Shown here piece after piece: positions 12,111-41,728 of a stretch of 48,214 bases of DNA. The translations under genes were made by a program, and so were the position numbers. The stretch is from an uncultured Burkholderiales bacterium. GTDB taxonomy: Bacteria > Actinomycetota > Acidimicrobiia > IMCC26256 > BP-133. The DNA lies in contig CAZCVW010000001.1 in assembly GCA_964502185.1 (NCBI GenBank), positions 1-48,214 of the forward strand, written 5' to 3'. The notes beneath the pieces were generated by a model. The model saw only the letters and a program-made list of their open reading frames with translations. It was not told the origin of the DNA and did not search any database. Position 1 is the stretch's first letter, and each line of letters begins with the position of its first letter.

Positions 12111-12365
12111 GTGTCCAAGGCGGGAGATCTGCCGGCGGATGCACACCTGGACCGAGATCGTCTGTGGACGATCGGGCAGGTGGCGGCTTACCTGCAGGTC
12201 CCCGTCGGCACGATCTACCAGTGGCGACACCGAGGGCTTGGCCCCGTCGGCCTGCGGGTCGGTCGCCACGTCCGCTACCGCAGCCGGGATGTCGAAGCGT
12301 GGCTTGAACGCGCAGCTGCTCCCCAGGGTTCGCCGCCGCTGCGGCGAGCGGGCCGGGGGCGGTGA
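12111..12365 (+). CDS. xis: excisionase-type helix-turn-helix DNA-binding protein
   Basis: LWTIGQVAAYLQVPVGTIYQWRHRGLGPVGLRVGRHVRYRSRDVEAWL is a typical excisionase-family HTH. GTG start at 12111, directly upstream of int. Confidence 0.65.
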   Translation: MSKAGDLPADAHLDRDRLWTIGQVAAYLQVPVGTIYQWRHRGLGPVGLRVGRHVRYRSRDVEAWLERAAAPQGSPPLRRAGRGR

Positions 12366-12420
12366 CTGGTCCCGGCCGATAGGCTCGGGCGTCAGCGGAT
12401 CTGGGGCTCCGCCAGGGGGT

Positions 12421-13584
12421 ATGGCCGATGGCGCATATCGAGAAGCGGGAGGGAAGCGGACCGGCAAGAAGTCCGTGTACTGGCGGGCCCGCTACCGCGA
12501 CCCCACGGGGCGTGAGCGCGTCAAGAACTTCGAGCGTCGGGTGGACGCCGAACGCTTCCTCACCACCATCGAGGCCGACAAGCTCCGGGGTGGCTGGGTC
12601 GATCCCGCGTTGGCCCGCCGGCTCTTGAGCGAGGTCGCCGAGGAGTGGCAGCGATCCCAGGTCCATCGTCCTTCGACGGCCGTCCAGGTCGAGACGCATC
12701 TTCGCCGCCACATCGTCTCCCAGTTCGGTGACCGGGCGATCGGCTCGATCCGGCCGAGCGAGATCCAGGCCTGGGTCAAGGAGCGCAGCGGGATCCTCGC
12801 CCCGGCGACGGTCACGGTTATTTACCGGTACTTGTCGGCGATCTTCCGCATGGCGGTGCGAGATGGACTCATCGCCAAGTCCCCTTGCGTCGATGCCCGC
12901 CTGCCCAAGATTGAGAAACCACGGGTGTCCCCGATGACGGTGGACCAGGTCGAGGCCCTGCTGGAGGCGATCGACCCGCGCTACCGGGGACTGGTGGCGC
13001 TCGGCGCCGGCGCCGGTCTACGCCAAGGCGAGGCCTTCGGCATCACCGTGCCCCACATCGACTTTCTACGGCGGACGATCCACGTAGAGCAGCAGCTCAT
13101 GCTCCTGCCGAAGCAGCCGCCGTTTCTGGCCCCACCCAAGACGGCATCCAGCGACCGCCGTGTCCCCGTCGGCGACTTCGTCGTCCACGCTCTGGCCCGC
13201 CACATGCAGGAGTACCCGACTGCTCGTGCCCTGCGCGCCGTCACCCGCCGGGACGAACCACTGATTTTCACCAACAAGGCCGACAGCCCCCTGAGCCGAA
13301 CGTGGTTCTCAGCCAACGTCTGGCGGCCGGCCACCCGGCGCGCTGGCATCCCCGACGGCCTCACCTTCCACGACCTCCGCCATTTCTATGCCTCCCTGCT
13401 GATCAGCCGGGGATCTTCGGTGAAGGTCGTCCAGGCCCGCCTCGGTCACAAGAGCGCCGTCGAGACCCTCGACCCCTACGGGCACCTCTGGCCCGACGAC
13501 GAAGACCTCACCCGGCAGGCAGTGGACTCGGTGATGATCGGAAGCGGCGCAGGCACGCCGGAAATCGCTGACCTGGAGTCATAA
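12421..13584 (+). CDS. int: tyrosine recombinase / phage-type integrase
   Basis: The N-terminal arm (YWRARYRDPTGRERVKNF), catalytic GLRQGEA (R), HDLRHFYAS (HxxR) and ...DPYGHL (Y) are all present. In-frame ATG at 12421. Confidence 0.9.
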   Translation: MADGAYREAGGKRTGKKSVYWRARYRDPTGRERVKNFERRVDAERFLTTIEADKLRGGWVDPALARRLLSEVAEEWQRSQVHRPSTAVQVETHLRRHIVSQFGDRAIGSIRPSEIQAWVKERSGILAPATVTVIYRYLSAIFRMAVRDGLIAKSPCVDARLPKIEKPRVSPMTVDQVEALLEAIDPRYRGLVALGAGAGLRQGEAFGITVPHIDFLRRTIHVEQQLMLLPKQPPFLAPPKTASSDRRVPVGDFVVHALARHMQEYPTARALRAVTRRDEPLIFTNKADSPLSRTWFSANVWRPATRRAGIPDGLTFHDLRHFYASLLISRGSSVKVVQARLGHKSAVETLDPYGHLWPDDEDLTRQAVDSVMIGSGAGTPEIADLES

Positions 13585-15694: not shown

Positions 15695-15738
15695 TTGAGG
15701 GGATTCCGAGAGGAGCACACCGCGCGGCTCGTCCGGCT

Positions 15739-15957
15739 GCGACCAAAATGCGACCAAAAAGTGCCCCCGATCTGCGTTTCCGCAGGTCAGGGGCATGATG
15801 GTGGTGAGCCGGCCTGTACGCCGGAGACAGTCAGGCGCACTTCGCTGACCTGCGGAAACGGGCCGATTTGGCCGCTGAGCAGCGGAAATAGATTGTTGTC
15901 ATTTGTGGACGCTCAGCACTGCTCGTGGCTCTTGTGTGGTCCCGATGTGGTCCCGGG
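15739..15957 (+). repeat. structured intergenic unit C1
   Basis: Contents in order: double box GCGACCAAAA x2 (15739-15760), a perfect 16-bp inverted repeat CGTTTCCGCAGGTCAG / CTGACCTGCGGAAACG (15775-15790 / 15845-15860) enclosing hairpin CCGGC-ctgtac-GCCGG (15809-15824), a third box (15875-15890), ATTGTTGTCATTTGTGGAC (15892-15910) and double box GTGGTCCC x2 (15936-15957). Confidence 0.8.
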
Positions 15958-16208
15958 CGTTCATTCCGGCGGCTCGAAGAGCTTGAGGCGGTCCTGTCGG
16001 AAGTCGACGAAGCCCTTCTTATTGAGCGCGACCAACGGCAGCCGGTGTCGGATACAACAGGACCGAGAGCGCATGATCCGGCTCGGGGCGCCGGGCAGAA
16101 AATCAGCCGACCAACAAGCCCGCTTCAGGCCGTCGTCAGCCTGAACGCCGACGCTGTGATCTCTGGGAAGAGAGCTCTTTCCCCTGGCAGCATCGGATCG
16201 GAGAAGCG

Positions 16209-16670
16209 ATGTCGCTGATCACGAGCGTGCCCGCGTTCCGGCTGTGGACGGCCGCCGCCGTCGCTGCCGGGATGGTGGCTGGCCTGGCCGGTTGCGGAGA
16301 CGACGACGACATCACCGTGGCCGGCAAGACGGCGGAGACGGTCCAGGTGACCCTGAGCGACTTCAAGATCGAGCTGGCCACGACCTCCGTGGCCGCCCGG
16401 GAAGTCAGGTTCGCGGTCGAGAACAAGGGCCCGTCGATCCACGAGTTCGTGGTCTTCAGGACCGACTTGGCCGCCGATGCCTTGCCGACCGGCGCCGACG
16501 GCGACGTCGCCGAGGGCGACAGCTTCGCCCCCGTCTATGAGATCGAGGACATCGCCAGCGGCGCCCGTCCCAATCTGACCGTCGACCTCGCCGCCGGCAA
16601 CTACGTCGTAATCTGTAACGTCCCGGCCCACTACCGCCAGGGGATGTATGCCTCGCTGACGGTGGAGTGA
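16209..16670 (+). CDS. cupredoxin-like (type-1 copper) lipoprotein
   Basis: Lipobox LAGCG. Copper ligands are H in SIHEF and C-x4-H-x4-M in CNVPAHYRQGM. Confidence 0.8.
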   Translation: MSLITSVPAFRLWTAAAVAAGMVAGLAGCGDDDDITVAGKTAETVQVTLSDFKIELATTSVAAREVRFAVENKGPSIHEFVVFRTDLAADALPTGADGDVAEGDSFAPVYEIEDIASGARPNLTVDLAAGNYVVICNVPAHYRQGMYASLTVE

Positions 16671-16857
16671 CCCGGCGCTCGGCGGGCTCTCGTCAGAAGC
16701 AGCGGGGCTTGAACCCGCATGGGCTTGCGCCCAGCGTGGGTACGCGTCTACGTGGTCACCGGAGCGGTCCGCGGGTAACTCGTGGCGAGGGCCGGGTCGG
16801 GTATCAGGTGCAGTAGTCCGCTGCCCTCGGGCTCCTGACGCAGACTGACTCGACCCC

Positions 16858-17061
16858 TCAGCGCCACTGAAGCCGGGCTGGTCTTGGACCTGGCTGCGAC
16901 CCTTGCGCCGCGGGTACTGCGAGCAGCCCCAAAACTGGCCTCCGGCGTCCTGACTGACCTCGGCGAGCTGTCCGCAGAACCATCTCGCTGCCGCAGTCAG
17001 GGCACTCGACCGCGCTCACCGGTTTACCGCAGACAGCCCGGGTCGGGCCCGCCAATGGCAA
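16858..17061 (-). pseudogene. topoisomerase-type zinc-ribbon remnant
   Basis: CPDCGSEMVLRTARRG is followed, in another frame, by QFWGCSQYPRRKG. This is the usual CPxCG...FWGCSxYPxC ribbon, broken by a frameshift and with a Cys lost. Confidence 0.45.
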
Positions 17062-17100
17062 TGGTGACAGCGACGCGGTGTCCGAACTCTGTCACCTACC

Positions 17101-17265
17101 GACTGGCCCCGCCACGCGGAGGACGACCAGCAAGGCCAGGTGCTCCATGCCGCCGTCGCGGAGGAGGAGCGTCGCGCAAGGGAGTGGCTCGTAGTCGGGC
17201 ACCCGCTTCCGTCGTCGATCGCCGTCATGTCGAGCTCGACGAGCGGCGCGCAAAGGGCGATCGTT
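17101..17265. repeat. diverged duplicate of the AbiEii-3'-end / PIN-5'-end junction
   Basis: GACTGGCCCCGCCA...GAGTG (17101-17186) closely resembles 18612-18697. The following stretch encodes, on the minus strand, a PIN-like N-terminus paralogous to the one at 18762. Confidence 0.6.
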
Positions 17266-17284
17266 CAACCTAGGCAAACCTTGT

Positions 17285-17584
17285 GTGGTCCCATGTGGTC
17301 CCGAGGCCCCCGTGGTGGCGCCAATCCGGCGGGAGCTGCAGCGTGGGCAAGGACTCGCAGCCCTTGTCGGACAGTACATTATCGGTCCACGTCGGAAACG
17401 AAGCGTTTGTGCTGGTCAGAGCGGGTGGTGGCGAGTCGGCCGATCTGCCGGACAATGTCAGGCGCTCGTCGCTGACTTGCGGAAACGGGCTGATTCAGCT
17501 CTTGACCTGCGGAAAGACATTGTTGTCATTTGTGGACCGCTGGGTTCGGTTGTGGCGCTCTCGTGGTCCCCATGTGGTCCCGGC
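17285..17584 (+). repeat. structured intergenic unit C2
   Basis: Same layout as C1: GTGGTCCC double box (17285-17305), degenerate a-box (17404-17419), hairpin TCGGC-cgatct-GCCGG (17436-17451), boxes at 17472-17487 and 17502-17517, ATTGTTGTCATTTGTGGAC (17519-17537) and a GTGGTCCC double box (17563-17584). Confidence 0.8.
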
Positions 17585-17611
17585 AAGGGGCCGGGCGCCC
17601 CAGATGGGCCG

Positions 17612-17995
17612 ATGCTGCATGATGGTGTCGTGAGCGCAAGACCGGAGTTCGGGCCGCGTGGCGGCTGGTACGCCCCGTACCGAACGATTCACGTTGCGTC
17701 TGATCTCGACGCACTGCGTGCTCCCGTGAAGGGGAAGGTCCGACTGCCGCTCCATCTCGACGCCTCGGCGCAGGCGGAGTACGACCTGGCTGACGCTCGC
17801 CGCCGCTCGGTGTTGTACGAGGTCGTGATCATCGAGGCGTGGAAGGACGAAGACTTCGAGGCTTGGCTCAACCGGGATGCGCTGATCGAGGCGTGGCCAA
17901 CGTTGTACCTCCCCCGCCAAGTACGCGCGGCGTGGGAGACACGCCACCCCGTTCTTCGTGCCCAGGGAGCCGGCCCGGACGTGCCCCGGCCGTAG
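17612..17995 (+). CDS. small protein upstream of AbiEii, putative non-canonical antitoxin
   Basis: 127 aa from the ATG at 17612. Its TAG is immediately followed by the GTG of the AbiEii-like gene (TAGGTG at 17993-17998). No wHTH was recognised. Confidence 0.5.
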   Translation: MLHDGVVSARPEFGPRGGWYAPYRTIHVASDLDALRAPVKGKVRLPLHLDASAQAEYDLADARRRSVLYEVVIIEAWKDEDFEAWLNRDALIEAWPTLYLPRQVRAAWETRHPVLRAQGAGPDVPRP

Positions 17996-18699
17996 GTGGC
18001 CATCGATCCGTTCCAGGCGGAGGTAGCCCGTATCGCGCTGGATGTGGCCGGCCCGCAAGGGTTTGCGCTGGCTGGCGGGAACGCCTCGTCGCGCACGGCA
18101 TCGTGCAACGCCCGACGAGGGACGTCGACCTGTTCAGCAACGACGTGGGCGGGCCTGGAGCTGTGACCGCCGCTGTCCAGGCGGCTCTGGAAGCCGCCGG
18201 TTATCAGGTTCTGATCACCCGTCCCCCGGAACTGAACCAGGGGGAGTTCTCCCAGATGGTGGTCAGCCGCGGTGACGACTCCATGCAGCTCGACTTGGCC
18301 CGTGACTGGCGTCGGTGGCCACCGGTCGAACTCCAGGTCGGTCCCGTGCTCCACCTGGACGACGCAGTGAACTCCAAGGTCAACGCCATGGTTGGCCGCG
18401 GCGCTGCCCGAGACTTTATCGACGTCGCCGCCGCCATTGGCTATGGCTACAGCCGGGCCGAACTGCTGCGTCTCGCCTTTACTCGCGACCCTGGCCTACG
18501 GGTGCTCGACTTCGCGTACGCCATGCACCAGCTCGACCGGTTCGGCCCCGAGGCGTTCGTCGACTACGGCCTTGACGGCGATGCGGTATCCGGGCTGCGC
18601 TCCCGCTTCGCCGACTGGCCCCGCCATGAGGAGGATGACCAAGAAGGCCAGGCTCTCCATGCCGCCGTCGCCGATGAGGAGCGACGCAGAAGAGAGTGA
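17996..18699 (+). pseudogene. AbiEii/AbiGii-family nucleotidyltransferase toxin, one frameshift
   Basis: VAIDPFQAEVARIALDVAGPQGFALAGGNA in one frame continues as LVAHGIVQRPTRDVDLF... in the next. The break is at a CC/CCC run near 18085 (AACGCCTCGTC where AACGCCCTCGTC is expected). Confidence 0.7.
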
Positions 18700-18762
18700 G
18701 CCCGAGGGGGCCCGGCACTTGTGAATGGCTGACGCCACGTCGGTGTCGATGACAAGGCGCAC
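18700..18762 (-). pseudogene. PIN-domain (VapC-like) N-terminal stub
   Basis: GTG at 18762, 6 nt after the VapB-like stop. (V)RLVIDTDVASAIHK is a typical PIN start, and the frame then runs into the AbiEii 3' end. Confidence 0.35.
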
Positions 18763-18768
18763 GAGGCG

Positions 18769-19065
18769 TCAGGCGAGTCCAGATTCTCGGGAGGCCCGGA
18801 GGTCCGTCAGGAAGGCGTCAAGCTCCTCGTCCGACTCCCACACGTCGAGAGCGAGTTCGTTCAGCGACCGCAAGGGCCTCGCTGCGACGGTGCGCGCGAT
18901 GGCCTCGAGATCGGCATCTTGAGATGGCTCAACCTCGCTGGGTGGTTGCGTGCCACGGTTCTGCGTGTCGTCACCCAAGAAGCCAAGGATACGCCGGCGG
19001 AGGAAACCACCGAACGCTGCTGTCGAGGCGCTGACCGCGACGCAATTCCGGGCCCGAGGTGTCAC
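18769..19065 (-). CDS. VapB-like antitoxin
   Basis: The C-terminal LNELALDVWESDEELDAFLTDLRASR resembles actinobacterial PIN-partner antitoxins. The start is uncertain (19065, or a TTG at 18978). Confidence 0.45.
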   Translation of the reverse strand: MTPRARNCVAVSASTAAFGGFLRRRILGFLGDDTQNRGTQPPSEVEPSQDADLEAIARTVAARPLRSLNELALDVWESDEELDAFLTDLRASRESGLA

Positions 19066-19127
19066 ACCTCTTGGGTACCGTTCGTGGTGTGAGAGACACT
19101 CGTCGAGTCAGGCTCTGGTGCGGACCA

Positions 19128-19276
19128 TGAGCAGTCCCACGGCACAGCCCGGGAACCCTGCGGTCGCCTTCGATCTGCCGGAGGTCGACGGCGTCGACCT
19201 GCCCGCGGTTCTGCACGTTCCCAGCTCGGTGGCTTCGCTGGCGAAGCAGCCGCCGGTTCCCTCACCCGGCGCGTGA
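19128..19276 (+). CDS. possible small ORF (49 aa)
   Basis: ATG at 19128. Its TGA overlaps the GTG of the next ORF (GTGA at 19273-19276). Confidence 0.3.
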
Positions 19277-20686
19277 AAGCGGTGGCGTGCACCGCCCCTC
19301 TGCACGATCTCGAGGCGAACAAGGTCCGTCGCGGTGGGGAGCCCTGGGCAGGGCTGAACTGCTGGGAGCTCGCCTTCGTGGCGATCGACACGGTGGCCAC
19401 CCGCATGGATTTTGCTGCCGGCGTTCCCTACGAGGATGTCATTGCCGTCGTCGCCGCCCAGACGGAGCATCAGGTGCCGGGGTTGGGGGCGCCCCAGCGC
19501 CGGTGACGGCTTCGGCGCCGTATACGGCCGATGGACCGACGACGGCTATCAGGCTTTCGCCTGGCCGTTCAAGCTCCTGACCGAGCACCCCGCCGCCCGA
19601 TCCGATGTCTGCCTGCGGGCATCGGACGAGGCGATCAACGTTTTGGTGGGAGCACTCGACACCGACGTCGAATCGGCGCAGGTGGCGGCCGAGGCGAAGC
19701 TGCAGAACCTGATCGATCGCGGCCTTCTCGATGAAGCGGTGGCGACCGCCCAGGCCGCTCGCTACCTGACCATCCGCTATGCCGAAGCACTGCGGCGCGA
19801 GGTGGCCAATACCCGGCTGAACGTCGCCGACGTCGACTGGGCCGAGCGGGTGCCGGGCATCATCGAGGCGGCGCTCGATCACGTGCTCGCCCGGTACCGG
19901 TCCGAGCGTCACATCCTGGCCAATATCGCCGAGAACCGCGATGCCGCCACCGAGGCTCGACTCCGGGAGCGGGCCACCCACCTGATCGCGGTCGTAAAGG
20001 ACTGCGAGCGTCGCCATCAGGCGCTACACACGCGTCTGGTGACGATCCGGGGCGAGTTCCGCGACGCTCAGGATGACCTGCTGGCGCGGCCGCCGGCGGA
20101 CGTGGTGCGGGTCGACATCGAGCGGGGGTTGCTCCTCCCACTGCTCCGCCTTCCCGTCGCTGGGGCCGCCGGCCCGTTGCGACACTTCTTCACGCAGATG
20201 TCAGGCCCGGCGGACGTGGTCCTTGGCGATGTGGACCGGCTCCTCGATGAACTGGCAGAGCCTCAGGTTCGGGCCGACCACCTTGGCGCGGTCGTGGATG
20301 CGCCCGATCTGGCTGATCTCAGCCGGGAGGCGGTGTTCGACGATGCCACAAGGGATCTGGCCGAGGGGGCGCTCGCCGAGCTGGACGGGCCGACTCGGCT
20401 CTCGGCGGTGCTGGCTCGCGTCGCCGACGCAGTTCGCGACGCCGCGGGAGGCGACGACGATGACGGTGAGTGGACCGTAGAGCGGATAACTCGGACCTGT
20501 CACCTGGCGGCCCTCCTGGCCGTCCGGGCCTACGACCCGGACATCGCAGGGGCCCGCGCCGCCCGGCGGGACAGGGTCCTGGTGGCCCTGTCCGACGGGA
20601 CACCGCTGGAGACACCATGGGTGACGGGCGACCACCTCCTCGTGGTGCCCGCTCGGACGGCGAGCTCACCAGAGGCGGGGCGGTGA
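19273..20686 (+). CDS. large helical hypothetical protein (~470 aa if one frameshift near 19495 is bridged)
   Basis: ORF 19273-19506 reads as real protein to its end. ORF 19412-20686 reads as real protein only after ~19500. The junction lies in G/C homopolymer runs. Confidence 0.5.
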
Positions 20687-21241
20687 CGGGGGCGTTCGAC
20701 GCGGCAGCCCTCCTCCGTTACGCGTGGCTGCCGCGCCGGATGCCGGGCGGGGACGCGGAGTACGCCCGCCTCGTCCACCGCTACCTCGGAGAACCGGTCG
20801 TTCCAGGCCATCTGCGAGGAGATCGCCTCCGGGCTGGGGGCGTTCATCGTGGCTGTCGACCCTCGTGCCGGAATCGTTGCCTTCGCCGGAGACGACTCCC
20901 CGTTCGCGCTCACCGTCGGTGATTATGCCAAGCGGGCCGCCGGCTCGGACCCCCTCTGGGTCGTCCACGGCCCCGCCTTCGCCGCCGCCGCCCGCCTGTC
21001 GTTCCCACAGGCAGCGCATCTCGACTCCGTGGATCGTCAGCCCCGGGTGTCGGTGGCGGACGTCGATGAGTACCTGCGGCGGCTCTGCGCCCGTCTGGAC
21101 GAGGATTTCCGCGGCGAAGATGTCGACCCGCCCGCCGATCAGCCTGCGCTCGAACGGTCGTGGCGCGCCTCTCCCGTCGGACCGTCGATTCGGTGGAAAG
21201 GCCTAGCCGGAGAACGGTTCTTGTCCCTTGTCCCACAGTAG
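20683..21241 (+). CDS. hypothetical protein (~185 aa if a frameshift near 20790 is bridged)
   Basis: GTG at 20683 overlaps the upstream TGA. VTGAFDAAALLRYAWL...HRYLGE in one frame continues as NRSFQAICEEIASGLGAFIVAVDPRAGIVAF... in the next. Confidence 0.45.
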
Positions 21242-21266
21242 GTCCTGGGTACTGTCCAATTCGGTG

Positions 21267-21316
21267 CATTTCCGCAGGTCAGCGGTAGTGGTGGCGAGCC
21301 GGCCTGTACGCCGGAA
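21267..21316 (+). repeat. truncated unit C3 (a-box plus hairpin only)
   Basis: CATTTCCGCAGGTCAG (21267-21282) and GGTGGCGAGCCGGCCTGTACGCCGGAAA, with the hairpin at 21299-21314. The right half of the unit is absent. Confidence 0.75.
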
Positions 21317-21467
21317 AGTGTCCGGTGCCCAAAATGGCCACCTTCCGTAGGTTCTCGTTGCTTGGCCATGCTCATCGAAAGGGGCTTCTACGAGGGCTTA
21401 TAGATCAACGTTGATGTGACGAGGCTTATCACTACTTCTCACAGTGAGCGGTCGTTTTCCCGACTCT

Positions 21468-21489
21468 CGCTGACATTTCGCTGACATCG
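21468..21489 (+). repeat. Y double box CGCTGACAT x2
   Basis: CGCTGACATTTCGCTGACATCG is identical to 28088-28109. Confidence 0.8.
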
Positions 21490-21530
21490 AACCCCCGGGA
21501 GTTGGCCTCGGGGGCCCGTCGCGATGAAGC

Positions 21531-28056: not shown

Positions 28057-28311
28057 GTCAGCGACGCACACGCTCCGTGGTTCCTTCCGCTGACATTTCG
28101 CTGACATCGAGGGTCGACATCACTGTATGTCCGCAGGTCACAGGCATAAATGGTGGCGAGCCGGCCTGTACGCCGGAAACTGTTGCCGGGGTCTCCCTGA
28201 CCTGCGAGTTTCCCGAGGAACCGGCTCTGACCTGCGAAAAGATCTGTCTGTAGTTACAGCGTTGTGACGGTGGTTTTCGGATCTCCCGCTCCCAACGGAC
28301 TCCCAACGGGA
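28057..28311 (+). repeat. structured intergenic unit C4
   Basis: Contents in order: inverted TCAGCG box (28057-28066), Y double box (28088-28109), a-box TGTCCGCAGGTCAC (28128-28141), hairpin CCGGC-ctgtac-GCCGG (28161-28176), CTGACCTGCGA boxes (28197-28208 and 28227-28241) and double box CTCCCAACGG x2 (28288-28311). Confidence 0.8.
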
Positions 28312-28608
28312 TCCTTATCGGCTTTCCCGTTTGGGCAACGGCCAGGCACGCCGAGATCTGCCGGGTTTTCCGCGTCTGACCGTGGCGGGATGCTTCGATT
28401 CCTCTCGCCTGGGGCTGCCCAGGCCCTTCGACGGGTCGGTTGGAAGCGGTTACCTCGGCCCTTCGTTCCCGAGCGTGCGAGGCGTGTACGTCGTTCCAAC
28501 GTCGTCTCCGGACCCCATCCCGCCCAGGACTCTCGGGTATTGCGCCGGCATGAAGAAATTCTGGTATACTGTCCTTCACCCCAAGGTTGAAGGTAAGGAA
28601 GCCAGACC

Positions 28609-28911
28609 GTGAGGGTCGAGTTCGAGGATGACGACCTACGGCGCCTCTACACGGATCCAGGGTTTCGGATCCGGCAGTTCGGCCCGGACGTGACAGCAGC
28701 ATTCAGGAAGCGGATGGCGGTGTTGGTTGCCGCCAAAGATGAACGTGATCTCTATGCCTTGAAGTCGTTGCACTTCGAGAAGCTATCGGGTGACCGGCTC
28801 GGTCAGCGGTCGATACGGCTCAACAAACAGTGGCGCCTGATCTTCCGGATGGAGGAGGACGAAGGTGGTCGGCTGGTGATCGTGGTCGAGATTACCGACT
28901 ACCACCACTAG
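28609..28911 (+). CDS. higB: HigB-type toxin (plasmid maintenance system killer, RelE/ParE superfamily)
   Basis: 100 aa. ...LKSLHFEKLSGDRLGQRSIRLNKQWRLIF... is a typical HigB core. GTG start with AAGGAAG upstream. Confidence 0.85.
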   Translation: MRVEFEDDDLRRLYTDPGFRIRQFGPDVTAAFRKRMAVLVAAKDERDLYALKSLHFEKLSGDRLGQRSIRLNKQWRLIFRMEEDEGGRLVIVVEITDYHH

Positions 28912-28926
28912 AGAGGAGGGAGTTCC

Positions 28927-30006
28927 TTGAGTGCCAACGACGTGATCACGCCAGCGGAGGTTTTCCCTCCTGGTGAGTTCATCCGTGAGGAGCTAGAGGA
29001 ACGCGGCTGGTCAGAGGCCGAGTTCGCGCAGATTCTTGGCCGCCCGGTGCAAGTGGTGTCGGAGATCCTCAACGGCAAGAAGGAGATCACGGCCGAGACC
29101 GCCCTCGTCTTCGGCATGGCGCTCGGCACAAGCGCGGAGTTGTGGTTGAACTTGCAGGCGGCGTACCGACTCCACCTCGTGCGCTCGCAGGAAGCAGGAA
29201 CGACCGCCGTCGCTCGCCGGGCCCGTCTTCGTACTTTGGTCCCGGTCCGGGAGCTGCAGAAGCTCCGGTGGCTACCGGAGACGGATGATCTGGACGTTCT
29301 CGAAGCTGCGGTCTGCGAGTTGGTGGGGATCGGAGCGCCGCATGAGGAGCCATCATTCACCGCTGCCGCGCGGCGGGTGAACGCGACCATCGACTTCACC
29401 CCGGAGCAGGTGGCGTGGATTGCCCGGGTGAGGAAACTGGGCGCTGGTCGAGGGACGGTGCCGTTCGACTCAGCACACCTGGCGGAGTTGGGCGTGTCGC
29501 TGGTCGGAAGGATCCGCGATCCCTATGACCTCTCGAACCTTCAGAGATGGCTGGCGGAGTACGGCGTTGCACTGGTGATCGAACAGTCCTTGAAGAGCAG
29601 CAAAATCGATGGGGTCGTACTGTTCGTCGATGGATCTCCGATCGTCGGCTTATCGACGCGTGGTGATCGGATGGATGGTTTCGTGTTCACGCTCCTTCAC
29701 GAACTTGCGCACCTTGTGCTCGGCCACATCGCTCCCGGTGACATTTATCTCGACGAAGATGTCGCGTCCGACGATGAGGCTGACGTCGAAGTTGCCGCCA
29801 ACGACTTGGCGGGGTCATGGATCTTGCCGAAGGAAGTCTCGGTCGGCCCGAGTCCGCCCAGGATGCCGGCGATCCTGGCTGCTGCTCGTCAGTACGGTGT
29901 GCATCCCTCATTCGTGATCGGTCGTCTCCAGAAGGATGGGCGGCTTGGTTGGGGGGATCTGCGTCGCCACATCCCCAAGGTTCGTCCGTTTGTTGAGTTT
30001 GGTTGA
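28927..30006 (+). CDS. HigA-type XRE HTH antitoxin fused to an ImmA/IrrE zinc metallopeptidase
   Basis: N-terminal HigA-like HTH (WSEAEFAQILGRPVQVVSEILNGKKEITAETALVFGMALG) and a C-terminal HExxH (LLHELAHLVLGH). Confidence 0.85.
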   Translation: MSANDVITPAEVFPPGEFIREELEERGWSEAEFAQILGRPVQVVSEILNGKKEITAETALVFGMALGTSAELWLNLQAAYRLHLVRSQEAGTTAVARRARLRTLVPVRELQKLRWLPETDDLDVLEAAVCELVGIGAPHEEPSFTAAARRVNATIDFTPEQVAWIARVRKLGAGRGTVPFDSAHLAELGVSLVGRIRDPYDLSNLQRWLAEYGVALVIEQSLKSSKIDGVVLFVDGSPIVGLSTRGDRMDGFVFTLLHELAHLVLGHIAPGDIYLDEDVASDDEADVEVAANDLAGSWILPKEVSVGPSPPRMPAILAAARQYGVHPSFVIGRLQKDGRLGWGDLRRHIPKVRPFVEFG

Positions 30007-30016
30007 GGTGCCGGCC

Positions 30017-31042
30017 ATGACTGTCGCCGCCCGAGCGCTTCCGAGGACGCTCAGCACGTCGTTCTCCTTCTATGTGCCGGCCTCGAAGCCGGGGCTCATT
30101 GCCGCCGCCGCCGAGTTGGCGGACGGGGTCACTGTGCGGGGAGCGAACGGTCCTTCCGTAGCCCGGCAGGCGCTCGGGGTGGACTGGGCGGGTTCACTGC
30201 TGTTCGACGGTGCCGGTTACGAGGAGGGCGCGCCTAGGATCGACGCCAAGGCGTGGTTTGATGCACAAGCCGACGCCGGTGCCGACCGGCTCATCACGCC
30301 CGGCCGCTGGGTCCCATGGGATGGCGGAGGCGACGCACTTGCCCAGGCAATCGACGCCGAGCGGAATGCGGGAGCCTCGTCGCCCGGGTCGACGGTGCTT
30401 CTCGCGGTGGATAGCCGGTGGCTCGGACGGGCTGCTAGAACGGTCATCGATCGTCTCCAAGATGTCGGGCAGCCAGTGGCGCTCGTGCTTGCTCACCAGG
30501 GCGATCCGCTGAGCGGCACGGGGGTGCTCGACGGACTCTTGGCCCTTCTCCGTACCCAAGAGCTCACGCTGCTGAGGTCCGACCACGGTGCGATCGGGGC
30601 CGTTGCTTTCGGCGCGGCACACGGATCCGTCGGCCTACGGGCCACATACCGGCATTTCGTTCCTCAAGGCGCAGCAGCCCGTCACAATCCTAAGGATCGA
30701 ACACCGCGGGTGTTTGTCTGGGACCTGTTGGACTGGTTCACGGCGGCGAAGATCGCCGGATGGGGCGCAAGCTCAATCAACTTCGATTGCCGCTTCGCAT
30801 GCTGCGATGGCGCCAGAATCGACCGTTTTCTTGACCCCCAGTTCGAGAACCAGGCTGAAGTCCACAATCGCACGACCCTCGCCTTCCTCGCTGAGCACAT
30901 CCTGGGGGACGCACCTGAGGGTCGGCGTCGATCCTTTGCGCGGCTCTGCTCCGCAGCCGTGGACCGCTATGGCCCGATGGGGAAGATGTCGGATCTGATC
31001 GAGCCGAAGGCTCAGCTCCTGCAATGGGCACTGTGGGCATAG
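30017..31042 (+). CDS. hypothetical protein with tRNA-guanine-transglycosylase-like motifs
   Basis: 341 aa, starting 10 nt after the ImmA gene. WAGSLLFDGAGYE (30185-30223), FDCRFACC (30782-30805) and a downstream EVHN. The CDS call is firm; the fold assignment is tentative. Confidence 0.6.
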   Translation: MTVAARALPRTLSTSFSFYVPASKPGLIAAAAELADGVTVRGANGPSVARQALGVDWAGSLLFDGAGYEEGAPRIDAKAWFDAQADAGADRLITPGRWVPWDGGGDALAQAIDAERNAGASSPGSTVLLAVDSRWLGRAARTVIDRLQDVGQPVALVLAHQGDPLSGTGVLDGLLALLRTQELTLLRSDHGAIGAVAFGAAHGSVGLRATYRHFVPQGAAARHNPKDRTPRVFVWDLLDWFTAAKIAGWGASSINFDCRFACCDGARIDRFLDPQFENQAEVHNRTTLAFLAEHILGDAPEGRRRSFARLCSAAVDRYGPMGKMSDLIEPKAQLLQWALWA

Positions 31043-31641
31043 AGCCACCGCTCGTAGGCCAACTCGGCCACCCACCACCGGTATACAGCCGGCGAGCCGA
31101 GGATCGGTTGAGACGGTTCGACCTTCACCTCATATCGGCCTGAATGCAGAGCCGCGAGCCCAACGCGTCGCCGATGAGCTAAGCCGATCGCTTCACCACC
31201 CGGTTCTTCTCCGGCGACCGCGAGTCGCGGAAATATCGGCGGAACATGGGACAGGCGTTGGATAGCGTCCTCGGCGCGGCGGTCCGCCACGATCGCGATC
31301 CCCACCGAGCCTGCTGGTCGGAACCTCCGCAGCAGTTGCCCGCCCACACGGTCGACAAGCAGTTTGCCATGTTGCCGGAGAGTGGTCGCATCGATCTCTG
31401 CCAGGCTTGATTGCTCGACGGGCTCACCCCCAGGCAAGGCCCAGAGCGCATGCAGCAACCGACGGTCCACGATCGCGCCGAGGCCTAACTCGACACGTCG
31501 GCAGTGCTCGTGCTCGTCGACCGAAAGACCCGCGATCCATGTGTCGCCATCCACATCAACGTGGACAAGCTCGCCATCAGCGCTGAGGCCGGGCAGAGCC
31601 TGCAGATCAACGATTCCAGGCGATTGGCCTACGCGGCTCAC
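31012..31641 (-). CDS. hypothetical protein (209 aa)
   Basis: GTG at 31641 overlaps the TGA of the upstream wHTH gene (GTGA at 31638-31641). Confidence 0.6.
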   Translation of the reverse strand: MSRVGQSPGIVDLQALPGLSADGELVHVDVDGDTWIAGLSVDEHEHCRRVELGLGAIVDRRLLHALWALPGGEPVEQSSLAEIDATTLRQHGKLLVDRVGGQLLRRFRPAGSVGIAIVADRRAEDAIQRLSHVPPIFPRLAVAGEEPGGEAIGLAHRRRVGLAALHSGRYEVKVEPSQPILGSPAVYRWWVAELAYERWLYAHSAHCRS

Positions 31642-31943
31642 GATCTTCCGGCCCCGATTTCGTCGGCGGTCGTCCACAGTGAGGACGGCGCAGGTGCGTA
31701 CCAACGCTCACGGTGGTCATCGCCGTCGCGGCCAGTCGGGATGAGGAGTCCCAGCGCCAGCAGCCGCTTGAGCGGGGCGCTGTAGAGCGAGGCCGAGCTG
31801 ACCTCGTTCTCGGCCACTAACTCGGACAGTGTGGCTCGGTCGGTGACCCGACTCAACGTGAGGCAGACCTCGAGCATGTAGCTGTTGCCAAAGAGACGCT
31901 TGGACCTTGCTCGGATGCCATCATCCACACCTACATCATACAT
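31638..31943 (-). CDS. winged-helix (MarR/ArsR-like) DNA-binding protein
   Basis: 101 aa with ...ATLSELVAENEVSSASLYSAPLKRLLALGLLIP... An AT-rich promoter with a palindrome lies at its start. Confidence 0.6.
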   Translation of the reverse strand: MYDVGVDDGIRARSKRLFGNSYMLEVCLTLSRVTDRATLSELVAENEVSSASLYSAPLKRLLALGLLIPTGRDGDDHRERWYAPAPSSLWTTADEIGAGRS

Positions 31944-31970
31944 GATTCATGAAACATAGAATATATTGCG
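31942..31970 (-). promoter_or_regulatory. AT-rich palindrome overlapping the start codon
   Basis: ATGATTCATGAAACAT (14 of 16 palindromic, core TTCATGAA) followed by AGAATATATT. This is the lowest-GC spot of the island. Confidence 0.45.
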
Positions 31971-32063
31971 AGCCCGACGTGGAAGGCTCGCCTGTTGTTC
32001 AACACGCCGGGCCCTCCACAAGTGGATGCCGCTCGGTTCCCGGCTCGAAGACCTGAGGGTTCG

Positions 32064-32465
32064 TCAGTCCTGCCGTCCACCGAAGCTACGTGTGCTCCTG
32101 GAGGTCGTGGCCCTGAACGGGTGGCCCGGCTCGGGGACGTTGCTGATGGGCCCTGTTCCGGGCGAGAGCAATACAGACACCCAGCGCGGGAATTCGATGG
32201 TGCGCGTCCGCCGCCGCCAGGCGATCTTGGCTTGGAGGCCCTCCCAGTTCAGGGGGGCGCCGGGCACGGTGAACGGGTCGCGCCAATCTGCGTCCCAGAG
32301 CGCTCGAACCTCAGCTCCGGCCCGCTTCCAACGGCAGAGCGTGTTCCTGGCGCGGTGGAGATTGATCTTGGAGCGCGTGACGGTGTCGCCGCAGTCGGGA
32401 CAGTCGACCAGCCAGTCATCTACGCCCAGCTCGCGCTCAAGCTCGTCATAGCCATCAGCGGTCAA
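32064..32465 (-). CDS. small zinc-ribbon protein
   Basis: 133 aa with CPDCGD...(17)...C. The C-terminal third is compositionally poor. Confidence 0.45.
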   Translation of the reverse strand: MTADGYDELERELGVDDWLVDCPDCGDTVTRSKINLHRARNTLCRWKRAGAEVRALWDADWRDPFTVPGAPLNWEGLQAKIAWRRRTRTIEFPRWVSVLLSPGTGPISNVPEPGHPFRATTSRSTRSFGGRQD

Positions 32466-32480
32466 GGCCTTGTCGAAGGC

Positions 32481-32876
32481 CTAGGGTCCGAGGTGTTTCA
32501 CGGCCGCCATGACGGTGTAAACCCATCGCCGGGAGGGAACGCCCTCGAGCGGCGAGCGGACAACGATGCCTTGCAGCACTTCGTACCGCATGCGCTCGCC
32601 CGACCTGAGGCGGAGCACCGTGTCGTGCGTTATGTCGAACGGCCTGATGTGGACAGCTGGTAGCCGCTCACCGAAGAGGACCGCGGCTGGTTGGGGAACG
32701 AGTGCCGAGTCCTCGACATCGTCGACCCAGGGCTTGCCTCGGCAGCGACCGAGGTTGACATGTGTTTCGACGGCCCGTGGATGCAGCCACGACTCGCATC
32801 CGCCGGGGCAGCGTGCCGTGAGGTAGCGGCACGGGGTGATGAACCGGCCTCTTCCGCTTCTCGGGATGCCTGACAT
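32481..32876 (-). CDS. small Cys/His-rich protein
   Basis: 131 aa with C-x6-C-x3-C...H...H...C near the N-terminus. Confidence 0.45.
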   Translation of the reverse strand: MSGIPRSGRGRFITPCRYLTARCPGGCESWLHPRAVETHVNLGRCRGKPWVDDVEDSALVPQPAAVLFGERLPAVHIRPFDITHDTVLRLRSGERMRYEVLQGIVVRSPLEGVPSRRWVYTVMAAVKHLGP

Positions 32877-32942
32877 GGTTGCCTCCTCGTAGGTTCAGAC
32901 CCATCGCCCGCCTGCAATACGTGTGACGTTGCGCCAGCACCC

Positions 32943-33004
32943 TCAACGAGAACCTCAACGGCGATATCAACGGACACCCACTCAACGGAAGCTGCCCTCA
33001 ACGG
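32943..33004 (+). repeat. iteron-like array, 5 x TCAACGG
   Basis: TCAACGA/TCAACGG boxes start at 32943, 32955, 32967, 32982 and 32998, in the divergent region between the Zn-finger operon and the ParB-like gene. Confidence 0.75.
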
Positions 33005-33227
33005 AAGCGTGCGTCGCCCCGCCTCGCATCTGAGGGCCCGGCGGGCGGACGGGCCGTCAAACACCAACCCCGACCGGCTTCTTGGAGCCGGCACGAGGAG
33101 AGCCCCGATCACACAGAATTGCCGCTCCCTGCGGGATCGACGACGTGACGGCGGCGTGTTCGGCCAGCAGAGTCTCTTCGGCAGCCCCGGTGCGAACTCC
33201 CGGCGAGGGACTGGGCTGCGCTTCCGA

Positions 33228-33452
33228 GTGTCGGCGGGCGGGGTCCGTCAATCCACAACCGTCAACCTGGCCCTCGCCGTCGCTCGCGCTCGGTCGGCTG
33301 CGGTCGAGGGACGGCGGGTCGTCGTCGTCGCCAGTGACGGGACCGCCGCTGTCGTGGAACTCCGTCTGAACGGCGCCGGGTTCGTCGTGATCGCCCACGG
33401 GCCCGGTTCGTGGCCCGACCAATGTCGCCGGCTCCTCGACGAGCACGGCTGA
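33228..33452 (+). CDS. possible small ORF upstream of the ParB-like gene
   Basis: A GTG at 33228 gives 74 aa ending 12 nt before the ParB-like ATG. No motif recognised. Confidence 0.2.
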   Translation: MSAGGVRQSTTVNLALAVARARSAAVEGRRVVVVASDGTAAVVELRLNGAGFVVIAHGPGSWPDQCRRLLDEHG

Positions 33453-33464
33453 AGGAGACCCCCC

Positions 33465-34787: not shown

Positions 34788-34802
34788 GATGTCGTTCTGG
34801 TC

Positions 34803-34820
34803 TTGACGCGTACGCGTCAA
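34803..34820. promoter_or_regulatory. perfect 18-bp palindrome TTGACGCGTACGCGTCAA
   Basis: Lies in the ParB-like/next-gene intergenic region. It is followed by the TGACAGC-n4-GCTGTCA dyad (34856-34873) overlapping a TTGACA. Confidence 0.7.
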
Positions 34821-34903
34821 TCACGTTCCTTCTCACAACCTGTGTCAGTAAGTTCTTGACAGCAACGGCTGTCAGGTAGTAACAGACAGAATGGAGGTTT
34901 CGC

Positions 34904-35539
34904 ATGACGCTTCTCGCTTGCTCATCTGACACCAACACCTGGCTCGCAGGGCATACCTGCGTGCGGGTGGTCGCGCTTCGGGATCCCGTGGTGGAGGCGG
35001 TCGGATTCGACGCCCGCAGCGGGTACGTGGAGGCGTATTGGTTGTGCATTCTCGGGCCGACGGCTCTCTTCACCCTGCGGAGGTTGTCCGAGGGCCTCAT
35101 CCGCCAGCCGGAGGGGTTCTCCGTTGAGCTCAGCCAGTTGGCCCGGGAGCTCGGGCTGGGGGATGGCACCGGGCGTCACGCTCCGGTCGTGAAGGCGGTT
35201 TCCCGATTGGTCGTCTTCAACCTGGCGGCCGTGGAGGGAGACACGCTCGCCGTGCGGCGCAGCGTCCCGCCACTGGCCCGTCGCCATCTCGCCCGGCTCC
35301 CCCGAGACCTGGCCGAGCGCCACCGGGCCGAGATGCAGGCACCGTCAGCGACGTGCTCGGCGGGACCGTCCCGCTCCGACGTTGACGGTTCCGAGACCTG
35401 GGCCGAGCCGGTTGGGAACAACCACCCGGCCCACCGGCGAGCGGGGGCGGTCGGTGTCGGGGAAGCCCGGCCGCCCTCACAGCCGGTCCGACCTGCCCTG
35501 TTGAGGTTTCCGTTGAGTCCACGAGAGGAGACAGCATGA
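34904..35539 (+). CDS. hypothetical protein of the mobilisation backbone
   Basis: 211 aa with a GGAGG RBS. Its stop overlaps the next start (ATGA at 35536-35539). Confidence 0.6.
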   Translation: MTLLACSSDTNTWLAGHTCVRVVALRDPVVEAVGFDARSGYVEAYWLCILGPTALFTLRRLSEGLIRQPEGFSVELSQLARELGLGDGTGRHAPVVKAVSRLVVFNLAAVEGDTLAVRRSVPPLARRHLARLPRDLAERHRAEMQAPSATCSAGPSRSDVDGSETWAEPVGNNHPAHRRAGAVGVGEARPPSQPVRPALLRFPLSPREETA

Positions 35540-36252: not shown

Positions 36253-36332
36253 TCGCGTGTCGGGTTCCGGCCTCGCCATGCGCATAGGGCCCCGTGGAGG
36301 CGAAGGGCGTCTCCGCAGGAGGACCCCGACCC

Positions 36333-40132: not shown

Positions 40133-40257
40133 CCAGCGTAGCCGCCCACGAGCAGCTGTCAGAGACACCCTGACACGGGGCCGAAACTCCAACATGAAAT
40201 TGCGCGAACTGCCTGCATTTTGAGGCGCCACCGATCCGGTTGTCACGACCGAACACC

Positions 40258-40287
40258 GTGCTAACCCAGTGCTAACCCAGGGTTAAC
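40258..40287 (+). repeat. double box GTGCTAACCCA x2 plus an inverted half-site
   Basis: GTGCTAACCCAGTGCTAACCCAGGGTTAAC, about 125 nt upstream of the HTH gene start. Confidence 0.7.
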
Positions 40288-41717: not shown

Positions 41718-41728
41718 TAGGAGCACCC

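What the first reader, a model, noticed from the sequence alone, without database searches (positions are those of the whole stretch)
15739..17584. Two ~200-bp paralogous structured intergenic units (C1, C2) with nested inverted repeats and a conserved hairpin
C1 (15739-15957) and C2 (17285-17584) share an ordered architecture. A 14-16 nt box (TTTCCGCAGGTCAG) is followed by the motif GGTGGYGAG plus hairpin CCGGC-loop-GCCGG, then two copies of the box in reverse complement (CTGACCTGCGGAAA), then ATTGTTGTCATTTGTGGAC, then a GTGGTCCC-n3-GTGGTCCC double box. In C1 the outer inverted repeat is a perfect 16 bp. In C2 the hairpin loop is entirely different (ctgtac versus cgatct) but the stem is retained, with C-G becoming U-G. 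Substitutions between the copies are spread over all codon positions, so the short ORFs through them (peptide ...SLTCGNG...) are not coding. C2 sits directly upstream of the AbiEii-like operon. This could be a structured RNA or leader, a multi-site operator, or recombination (att-type) sites left by tandem accretion of elements. None of these matches an RNA family I recognise.
Basis: seen in the sequence. Interest (0 to 1): 0.65.

Follow-up and report, generated by a model that had tools for sequence, protein, structure and literature searches.

The report
Island junctions at RNase P gene
[quoted passage not shown] This is an ordinary mechanism used at an unusual target.

Summary
All four lie on the + strand. 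Their invariant core, TGGTGGYGAGYCGGCC-N5-GCCGGA, is the reverse complement of the 3'-terminal 27 nt of RNase P RNA (rnpB). In 18 of 20 Acidimicrobiia/Actinomycetota genome loci that carry the motif, it overlaps the 3' end of a full-length rnpB. Homologues of the window's tyrosine integrase (12139-13584) end 60-110 nt from it and read toward it.

Its variable bases covary with the 5' end of rnpB, not with each other.

Each unit is a mosaic. It has the P' arm of the island on its left, the core, and the P arm of the island on its right. The 11-nt-phased boxes match across an island: GTGGTCCC for island 1 and CGCTGACAT for island 3. Each half recurs separately in other metagenomes, the left halves of C1, C3 and C4 beside intact rnpB.

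A new RNA or an operator is not supported. I found no paper that describes rnpB as an integration target.

The parts
12139..13584 (+). Tyrosine integrase int0 of island 0, transcribed toward C1.
   Evidence: Pfam Phage_integrase 1e-22, Phage_int_M and SAM_3. The nearest solved relative is Tn1549 Int. Homologues of 30-55% identity end 61-108 nt before the motif in 11 of the 14 loci that have one, always on the same strand.
15738..15759 (+). P' arm of island 0: TGCGACCAAAA twice, with an 11-nt period. Inferred to be an integrase arm-type site.
   Evidence: The same boxes occur at -60/-49 beside an intact rnpB in L024, and at +137/+148 in the P arms of L121 and L138.
15762..15795 (+). Local 15-bp hairpin whose 3' half is the L box (15777-15790, TTTCCGCAGGTCAG).
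   Evidence: The equivalent site is a perfect palindrome in L139. An L box lies 6-11 nt beyond the 3' end of rnpB in the genome loci.
15799..15825 (-). C1 core: a copy of the 3'-terminal 27 nt of RNase P RNA (rnpB sense is the minus strand).
15845..15888 (+). R1 (15845-15858) and R2 (15875-15888): inverted copies of the L box, 30 nt apart, in the P arm of island 1.
   Evidence: The same layout occurs in L001, L008, L121, L138 and C4.
15892..15954 (+). Distal P arm of island 1: the AT-rich motif ATTGTTGTCATTTGTGGAC, then three 11-nt-phased boxes (GTGGCTCT, GTGGTCCC, GTGGTCCC).
   Evidence: A related TTGTTGTAATTTG motif lies in the P arm of L121.
15955..17284 (.). Interior of island 1: a cupredoxin-like lipoprotein gene (16209-16670) and a 3' fragment of an AbiEii-like gene. 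No integrase.
   Evidence: Repeats D4 and D8: 17099-17186 is 85% identical to 18611-18698.
17285..17302 (+). P' arm boxes of island 1: GTGGTCCC twice.
   Evidence: The same boxes lie at about -127/-116 beside intact rnpB in L009 and L036.
17406..17452 (+). C2 L box (17406-17419) and core (17426-17452). The core is the TCGGCC...GATCT allele of the rnpB 3' end.
   Evidence: A related CCGATAC allele occurs in the intact rnpB genes of L003 and L013.
17472..17581 (+). P arm of island 2: R1 at 17472-17485, R2 at 17502-17515, AT-rich motif at 17519-17537, three boxes at 17552-17581.
   Evidence: The arms of L033 and L132 are homologous.
17582..21268 (.). Interior of island 2: an AbiEii-like toxin gene (17839-18699) with the ORF upstream of it, unassigned ORFs, and an eroded P' arm (about 21150-21268). 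No integrase.
21269..21315 (+). C3 L box (21269-21282) and core (21289-21315).
21316..21519 (+). P arm of island 3. It belongs to a different class without R boxes and has CGCTGACAT twice at 21468-21487.
   Evidence: It is 93% identical over 202 nt to L097.
28088..28107 (+). P' arm boxes of island 3: CGCTGACAT twice.
   Evidence: The arm is 96% identical over 109 nt to the sequence beside intact rnpB in L050, and 82% to that in L002.
28128..28177 (+). C4 L box (28128-28141) and core (28151-28177).
28197..28309 (+). P arm of island 4: R1 at 28197-28210, R2 at 28227-28240, CTCCCAACGG twice at 28289-28309.
   Evidence: It is 81-82% identical over 130 nt to L098, L087 and L040.
28310..48214 (.). 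Island 4, a conjugative-element-like segment that runs off the window: HigB/HTH-M78, ParB, a TrwC relaxase (36294-39803) and a Tn3 transposase fragment.

Best explanation

Each element's attP carries a replacement copy of the last 27 nt of rnpB, plus roughly 20 nt of downstream sequence that includes part of the L box. Integration therefore leaves rnpB intact and duplicates that segment at both ends of the element.

Read on the + strand, a unit is made up of:
- the P' arm of the island on its left (a phased double box, then the L box)
- the rnpB core
- the P arm of the island on its right (R1 and R2, which are inverted L boxes, then an AT-rich motif, then two or three phased boxes)

Inferred: the island-specific 11-nt-phased boxes are arm-type sites for that island's integrase. 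The shared L/R boxes bind a conserved part of the integrase or an accessory or host factor, and so shape the recombination complex.

Shown: the identity of the core with the rnpB 3' end, the position and direction of the integrases, the mosaic composition of the units, and the matching of arm boxes across islands.

Inferred: which protein binds which box, where the crossover point lies, and whether any of these sites is still active. Islands 1-3 carry no integrase.
For: 1. A genome scan with the motif found 21 stretches, mostly in Acidimicrobiia MAGs. In 18 of the 20 tested, the motif overlaps the 3' end of a full-length RF00010 hit (244-286 bits, model 1-367) on the opposite strand.

2. int0 homologues lie immediately beside the motif and are transcribed toward it in L003, L007, L011, L013, L049, L127 and others: 14 loci in all, every one on the + strand of the oriented locus.

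3. There is a clean single-island example in MAG contig CAVUYD010000004. L001 carries core, R1, R2 and CGCGGCCT x3. L003 carries int, CGCGGCCT x2, L box, core and rnpB. The two share only a 45-nt direct repeat, 97.8% identical.

4. Arm boxes match across islands. Island 1 has GTGGTCCC on both arms. Island 3 has CGCTGACAT on both arms. The island-0 type has GCGACCAAA in the P' arm of C1 and L024 and in the P arm of L121 and L138.

5. The units are mosaics.
- The left side of C1 matches L024 beside rnpB (89%).
- The left side of C3 matches L036 and L009 beside rnpB.
- The left side of C4 matches L050 beside rnpB (96%).
- The right sides match fragments whose left sides are different: C3 with L097 at 93%, C4 with L098 at 82%.

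6. The two variable bases of the core covary with the 5' end of rnpB, that is, with P1: U-A 40, C-G 7, U.G 8 and C.A 3 of 58 loci.

About 74 hits continue as rnpB on the right (crude sequence classification) and about 46 are junction or fragment copies, many of them with R boxes.
Against: - No intact rnpB lies in the window, so the link to the host's own rnpB is inferred from other genomes. The gene should lie beyond the right end.
- Islands 1-3 have no integrase.
- Island 0 has no distal att copy inside the window.
- No excision product or empty site from this organism was seen.
- Island 2's P' boxes are eroded.
- Assigning the boxes to integrase arm binding rests on analogy. The N-terminal 174 aa of int0 has no Pfam match.
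Confidence: 0.88

Rival explanations
1. The units encode a new structured RNA, either an sRNA or a leader for the downstream cassette operons. It would be built on the long L/R inverted repeat and the CCGGC/GCCGG hairpin.
For: C1 folds stably: z = -2.7 on the + strand and -4.45 on the - strand. L:R1 pairing across 13 junction units is slightly above the shuffled controls, 79.7% against 73.6%, with a covariation score of 0.212 against 0.126.
Against: - The hairpin bases belong to rnpB (the conserved P4-region segment and the 3' strand of P1) and covary with the 5' end of rnpB.
- The predicted folds differ. In C1 the L box pairs with R1. In C4 it pairs with R2, and C2 folds differently again.
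- 20% of L:R1 cells are unpaired, including 5 of 13 at the central W position.
- C3 has no R boxes at all.
- L and R come from different elements.
- There is no Rfam match and no promoter- or terminator-like site.
- The weak covariation is what inverted binding sites of one protein would give.
Confidence: 0.03
2. The units are transcriptional operators: multi-site binding regions for the island's HTH/wHTH regulators that control the adjacent cassette genes.
For: The units contain phased direct repeats and inverted repeats typical of protein-binding sites. C2 and C4 lie upstream of toxin-antitoxin-type operons, AbiEii and HigB.
Against: - The same box layout sits directly after integrase stop codons and next to the rnpB 3' end in many genomes, where there is nothing to regulate.
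- The boxes recur on both ends of an island.
- No promoter-like hexamers were found.
- The cargo genes next to homologous arms differ between genomes.
Confidence: 0.05
3. The units are MITE-like or transposon ends, or integron attC sites, defined by the 14-16-bp inverted repeat.
For: C1 has a perfect 16-bp inverted repeat. The units punctuate an array of gene cassettes, all in one orientation.
Against: - The inverted repeat is not at the boundary of any mobile unit and has no target-site duplication.
- The sequence between the arms is the rnpB 3' end.
- The transposases in the window (a Tn3 fragment at 40368-41414) are unrelated.
- There are no attC R/L boxes (GTTRRRY).
- int0 resembles Tn1549 Int most closely. 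Its match to IntI4 covers only a 55-residue C-terminal stretch.
- The cassettes hold several genes on both strands.
Confidence: 0.02

Closest known systems
Genomic islands, prophages and ICEs integrated in the 3' ends of tRNA and tmRNA genes, including tandem arrays (Williams 2002, Nucleic Acids Res 30:866; Islander/TIGER resource, PMC12424338)
   Same: A tyrosine integrase lies beside the intact RNA gene and is transcribed toward it. The attP carries a replacement copy of the gene's 3' end. Direct repeats bound each island, and successive insertions give arrays of partial 3' ends.
   Different: The target is the RNase P RNA gene. The segment replaced is the last 27 nt, made up of part of the conserved P4-region segment and the 3' strand of P1. 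It is not a tRNA-like stem-loop.
Phage phiEf11 integration into ffs, the 4.5S RNA gene (PMC12540744, 2025)
   Same: Integration by a tyrosine integrase into a stable non-tRNA RNA gene, with a 27-nt identity segment and attP close to the end of the int gene.
   Different: It is a single prophage in a Firmicute and targets a different RNA gene. That paper lists the known ncRNA targets as tRNA/tmRNA and csRNA, and rnpB is not among them.
ICE/CIME accretion in Streptococcus thermophilus (ICESt1/ICESt3 with cis-mobilizable elements at the 3' end of fda).
   Same: Tandem elements are separated by att copies. Some lack integrase and conjugation genes but keep att sites, next to a conjugative element.
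   Different: The host phylum differs and the target there is a protein-coding gene. In the window the arm boxes differ between neighbouring elements, so no single integrase obviously serves all of them.
Lambda and mycobacteriophage L5 attP architecture (arm-type and core-type sites). Cited from my own knowledge.
   Same: Phased direct repeats lie on both arms, the P' arm follows the 3' end of int directly, and accessory sites lie between the core and the distal arm sites.
   Different: A second, shared set of sites (L, R1, R2) occurs in inverted orientation about 10-20 nt from the core. No binding data exist for any of the sites.
Integron attC cassette arrays
   Same: An array of cassettes in one orientation, separated by imperfect inverted-repeat sites, with toxin-antitoxin cargo.
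   Different: There is no IntI-type integrase, attI, attC consensus or Pc promoter. The cassettes hold several genes on both strands, and the sites derive from a host RNA gene.

Membership tests
att sites of tyrosine-integrase integrative elements targeting the 3' end of a stable RNA gene | The repeat is identical to the 3' end of the target RNA gene. | tested here: met
   The core is the reverse complement of the last 27 nt of rnpB. The motif overlaps the 3' end of RF00010 hits in 18 of 20 loci.
att sites of tyrosine-integrase integrative elements targeting the 3' end of a stable RNA gene | An integrase gene lies next to the att copy that abuts the intact target gene. | tested here: met
   int0 homologues end 61-108 nt from the motif in 11 loci and within about 1.1 kb in the other 3. 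All 14 are on the same strand. In the window, int0 lies 2.1 kb before C1 in that orientation.
att sites of tyrosine-integrase integrative elements targeting the 3' end of a stable RNA gene | A direct repeat bounds a discrete island and the target gene stays intact. | tested here: met
   L001 and L003 share a 45-nt repeat at 97.8% identity, and L003 has a full-length rnpB. This is shown in relatives. The window itself holds no intact rnpB.
att sites of tyrosine-integrase integrative elements targeting the 3' end of a stable RNA gene | Both arms of one element carry the same arm-type repeats. | tested here: met
   Island 1 has GTGGTCCC, island 3 has CGCTGACAT, L001/L003 have CGCGGCCT, and the island-0 type has GCGACCAAA. 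Island 2's P' boxes are eroded. That a protein binds these boxes is inferred.
att sites of tyrosine-integrase integrative elements targeting the 3' end of a stable RNA gene | Excision and integration activity (circular attP junction, empty attB). | not testable with these tools
   The read sets SRR6868922 and SRR6868923 cannot be searched by DNA here. No viral contig carries the core.
Structured non-coding RNA family (Rfam-type) | A conserved secondary structure supported by covariation, or a match to a curated model. | tested here: not met
   No Rfam hit at the gathering threshold, and only noise at E <= 10. The copies fold differently. L:R1 pairing is only marginally above controls, with 20% of cells unpaired. 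The hairpin bases covary with the 5' end of rnpB instead.
Integron (attC / IntI) | An IntI integrase with its extra domain, next to attI and Pc, and attC sites with R''-L''/L'-R' boxes. | tested here: not met
   int0 matches Tn1549 Int best (5.9e-15). Its match to IntI4 covers only residues 396-450. The units show no GTTRRRY-type boxes. The cassettes hold several genes on both strands.
MITE / IS terminal inverted repeats | Inverted repeats at the element termini with target-site duplication, and copies dispersed at unrelated sites. | tested here: not met
   All copies lie at rnpB or at island junctions. The inverted repeat encloses the rnpB core. The profile search finds only four copies in 48 kb.

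The most novel reading that the evidence does not exclude
rnpB in Acidimicrobiia is a dedicated, heavily used landing pad, and the small units between the cores are more than decayed islands. Islands 1-3 measure 1.6, 3.8 and 6.8 kb and carry defence, toxin-antitoxin and transporter cargo. They would be a class of integrase-less cassettes with complete, matched P and P' arms, moved in trans by integrases of neighbouring elements. The GTGGTCCC class also sits beside intact rnpB in L009 and L036 with no int0-like integrase adjacent. That would make a functional analogue of an integron cassette array, built from lambda-type att sites on a ribozyme gene.
Probability: 0.2. Interest if true: 0.6.

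Novelty: new member of a known kind. Interest (0 to 1): 0.36.

Why it matters
- **False positive removed.** The finding looked like a novel-RNA candidate. It is now explained as recombination scars.
- **A new integration hotspot.** The work identifies the RNase P RNA gene as a recurrent integration hotspot in uncultured Acidimicrobiia and related Actinomycetota. Nine full-text literature searches found no description of rnpB as an att target.
- **Effect on the ribozyme.** Integration swaps in an element-borne 3' end of an essential ribozyme. About one fifth of the rnpB genes examined show a wobble or a mismatch in P1, which such chimeras could explain.
- **Practical use.** Island finders that look only at tRNA and tmRNA genes would miss these elements. 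The mosaic arms give a ready-made set of integrase and arm-site pairs for specificity studies.

Tried and rejected
- **tRNA or tmRNA origin of the core.** It ends ...GCCACCA when read in reverse. ARAGORN finds nothing in the window or in 21 loci.
- **Rfam.** The gathering threshold on the window, and E <= 10 on 15700-16000, gave only c-di-GMP riboswitches elsewhere and noise. 27 nt is too short for the RNase P model.
- **Other collections.**
  - Plasmid megablast of 12-34 kb gave only cargo-gene hits.
  - A viral-contig scan for the core gave 0 hits, so these are probably not phages.
- **A fifth, degenerate unit left of int0.** The nhmmer profile and a search for TGCGACCAAAA found none. P(0)-type arms from L121 and L138 have no match there either. 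The site at 10788-10880 does not fit the unit order.
- **Extending the window to reach rnpB.**
  - A lookup of the CAP protein near the right end (46802-47542) returned only 1-kb contigs.
  - A lookup of int0 returned a 13-kb Logan contig that ends at the C3 core.
- **Counting integrases beside every locus.** The last-ORF heuristic was too noisy in high-GC DNA to use.
- **N-terminal 174 aa of int0.** No Pfam match at E <= 10.
- **Literature.** Nine searches found no report of rnpB as an att target. The TIGER paper (PMC7192596) is not held.
Full report
**Observation**

The region was read directly.

A repeat search over the whole window shows four units rather than two, all on the + strand. The invariant 26-27-nt core, TGGTGGYGAGYCGGCC-N5-GCCGGA, lies at 15799, 17426, 21289 and 28151. 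The core occurs 4 times against 0.08 expected by chance.

A profile built from 25 copies finds exactly these four in the window. C1 and C2 are 80% identical over 112 nt. C4 keeps the same order of boxes with different sequence. C3 shares only the left box and the core.

**What the core is**

A scan of one genome per species, using the motif plus the end of the left box, returned 21 stretches, almost all from Acidimicrobiia/Actinomycetota MAGs. Rfam then placed a full-length bacterial RNase P RNA (RF00010, 244-286 bits, model 1-367) over the motif in 18 of 20 loci, on the opposite strand and with its 3' end inside the motif.

The alignment for L016 shows the RNA ending ...AACAGAAUCCGGCGUACAGGCCGACUCGCCAC. 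The core of the units is therefore the reverse complement of the last 27 nt of rnpB.

CCGGC belongs to the conserved ACAGAAnCCGGC segment, which established knowledge of RNase P assigns to the 3' strand of P4. GGCCGRCUCR is the 3' strand of P1, marked '}' in the Rfam consensus, and pairs with the 5' terminus CGAGYCGGCC.

Across 58 full rnpB loci, the variable base of the supposed stem pairs with the 5' end of rnpB: U-A 40, C-G 7, U.G 8 and C.A 3. The 'C-G to U-G' change in C2 is thus an rnpB allele difference, not compensation inside a new hairpin.

**Integrases**

The window encodes one tyrosine integrase, int0 (12139-13584). Its closest solved relative is Tn1549 Int.

A tblastn search with int0 finds homologues of 30-55% identity in 14 loci. 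Each lies on the strand that reads toward the motif. In 11 of the 14 the match ends 61-108 nt before it. This is the classical arrangement of int next to the P' arm of attL, beside the intact target gene.

**A single-island example**

In MAG contig CAVUYD010000004, two loci define one island.
- L003 reads int, CGCGGCCT x2, L box, core, rnpB.
- L001 reads flank, core, R1, R2, CGCGGCCT x3.

The two loci share only a 45-nt direct repeat at 97.8% identity. These are attL and attR of one island, and they define the layout of the arms.

**Anatomy of a unit**

On the + strand each unit reads, in order:
- the double box of the island on the left (its P' arm)
- the L box TTTCCGCAGGTCAG
- 6-11 nt of spacer
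- the rnpB core
- about 17 nt of spacer
- R1, and 30 nt later R2 (inverted L boxes)
- an AT-rich motif
- two or three boxes with an 11-nt period, belonging to the island on the right (its P arm)

The boxes match across an island.
- Island 1 has GTGGTCCC at 15925-15954 and at 17285-17302.
- Island 3 has CGCTGACAT at 21468-21487 and at 28088-28107.
- The double box at the start of C1 is TGCGACCAAAA x2. It recurs beside an intact rnpB in L024 and in the P arms of L121 and L138.
- Island 2 has GTGGTCCC boxes in its P arm. Its P' arm is homologous to the GTGGTCCC-class arms of L036 and L009, but the boxes themselves are eroded.

**Mosaic origin**

About 74 hits continue as rnpB on the right, by a crude sequence classification, and about 46 are junction or fragment copies.

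BLAST of each half of each unit against these loci shows that the halves travel independently.
- The left side of C1 matches L024 (89%).
- The left side of C3 matches L036 and L009.
- The left side of C4 matches L050 (96%) and L002 (82%).
- In every one of those loci the match lies directly beside an intact rnpB.
- The right side of C3 matches L097 (93% over 202 nt).
- The right side of C4 matches L098, L087 and L040 (81-82%).
- The right sides of C1 and C2 match L033 and L132.
- These right-side matches are in loci whose left sides differ from those in the window.

It shows that the units are att junctions.

**Test of the RNA reading**

- The three copies that were folded give different minimum-energy structures. 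In C1 the L box pairs with R1. In C4 it pairs with R2, and C2 folds differently again. Only C1 has a strong z-score.
- L:R1 complementarity across 13 junction units is 79.7% against 73.6% in shuffles, a weak covariation signal, and 20% of cells are unpaired. Inverted binding sites of one protein would behave this way.
- C3 lacks R boxes altogether.
- No promoter- or terminator-like sites are found.
- There is no Rfam hit, even at E <= 10.

**Reading of the window**

In rnpB sense (the minus strand), the array runs as follows:
- rnpB, expected beyond the right end of the window
- island 4, at least 20 kb, with HigB/HTH-M78, ParB and a TrwC relaxase, so it resembles a conjugative element
- C4
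- island 3, 6.8 kb, with an ABC transporter, MerR, HTH_67, DUF2200, PNPOx, HEPN and MarR genes
- C3
- island 2, 3.8 kb, with an AbiEii-like gene
- C2
- island 1, 1.6 kb, with a cupredoxin-like gene and an AbiEii fragment
- C1
- island 0, with int0 proximal, which extends left, possibly beyond the window

C2 joins two arms of the same GTGGTCCC class, so it is equivalent to a complete attP.

Islands 1-3 contain no integrase. They are either relics or integrase-less elements that depend on an integrase supplied in trans. GTGGTCCC-class P' arms in other genomes also lack an adjacent int0-like integrase. That keeps the second possibility open.

**What is shown and what is inferred**

Shown:
- the identity of the core with the rnpB 3' end
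- the position and direction of the integrases
- the direct repeats bounding an island
- the matching of arm boxes
- the mosaic composition of the units

Inferred:
- the phased boxes are integrase arm-type sites
- the L/R boxes bind a conserved integrase domain or an accessory or host factor
- the crossover lies within the 27-45-nt identity segment
- the host's rnpB lies to the right of the window

In some P' arms the L box is half of a palindrome: 15762-15795 in C1, and a perfect palindrome in L139. It could also be part of a terminator-like hairpin downstream of rnpB.

**Novelty**

The mechanism is the well-known one of islands at tRNA and tmRNA genes, including tandem arrays. The target is unusual.

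Nine full-text searches found no paper that describes rnpB as an attachment site. A 2025 paper that reports ffs as a novel target lists only tRNA/tmRNA and csRNA as the known ncRNA targets. The TIGER paper could not be read, so an earlier mention in its tables cannot be excluded.

I rate the finding as a new member of a known kind, of moderate interest.

Noticed in passing
window 41629-41716 (+), 47561-47646 (-), 47946-48021 (+): There are three c-di-GMP-I-type riboswitch aptamers (Rfam 81, 81 and 64 bits). The first lies just inside the 5' end of a GGDEF-EAL ORF (41570-44113). The second precedes a CAP-domain protein gene (46802-47542, minus strand). These copies are the window's longest inverted and direct repeats (I1, I2, D12).
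   Followed up: partly
rnpB loci L004, L006, L009, L013, L026, L034, L041, L060, L065, L070, L091: In 11 of 58 full rnpB genes, the variable P1 base pair is a U.G wobble (8) or a C.A mismatch (3). These may be chimeric RNase P RNAs whose 3' end was supplied by an element from another lineage.
   Followed up: partly
L009, L036, L084, L087, L097, L098 (P' arms with GTGGTCCC x2 at about -127/-116 from the core): This arm class has no int0-like integrase beside it, and the adjacent ORFs do not look like integrases. From their N-terminal sequences alone, the L009 neighbour resembles an amidase and the L084 neighbour a toxin-antitoxin-type protein. It may be a family of integrase-less, att-flanked elements.
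   Followed up: partly
window 10788-10880: This is the intergenic region upstream of a ZIP transporter gene. It holds CTGACCAGCGCATA, TGGTGG, an L-like box TTACAGCAGGTCAG, a partial TGCGACC, and CGTGTCACGC twice with an 11-nt period. The pieces resemble unit parts but are in an order that fits neither arm. It is unexplained.
   Followed up: partly
window 21536-21575 and 26575-26614: Two copies of a roughly 40-nt, internally palindromic element, 85% complementary to each other. They bracket the 5-kb block of ABC transporter, MerR, HTH_67, DUF2200 and PNPOx genes inside island 3.
   Followed up: no
window 2953-8745 (-): A defence-like gene cluster: a DEAD/Lhr-like helicase, a BrxC/BrxD-family ATPase (E = 1.6e-154) and a TerB_N/TerB_C protein. 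It may belong to island 0.
   Followed up: no
window 17041-17186 versus 18423-18698: Island 1 ends with a fragment homologous to the 3' part of island 2's AbiEii-like gene. One 88-nt stretch (17099-17186 against 18611-18698) is 85% identical. Islands 1 and 2 are therefore sibling elements, and island 1 is a deletion derivative.
   Followed up: partly
L144 (Logan contig SRR6868922_288719) = window 8180-21318: An independent assembly is identical to the window over 13,139 nt. It stops just after the C3 core (21289-21315), as expected for an assembly break at a repeat shared with C4.
   Followed up: yes
window 40368-41414 (-): A truncated Tn3-family transposase (DDE_Tnp_Tn3, profile positions 61-335 of 389) lies just after the TrwC relaxase region of island 4.
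   Followed up: no
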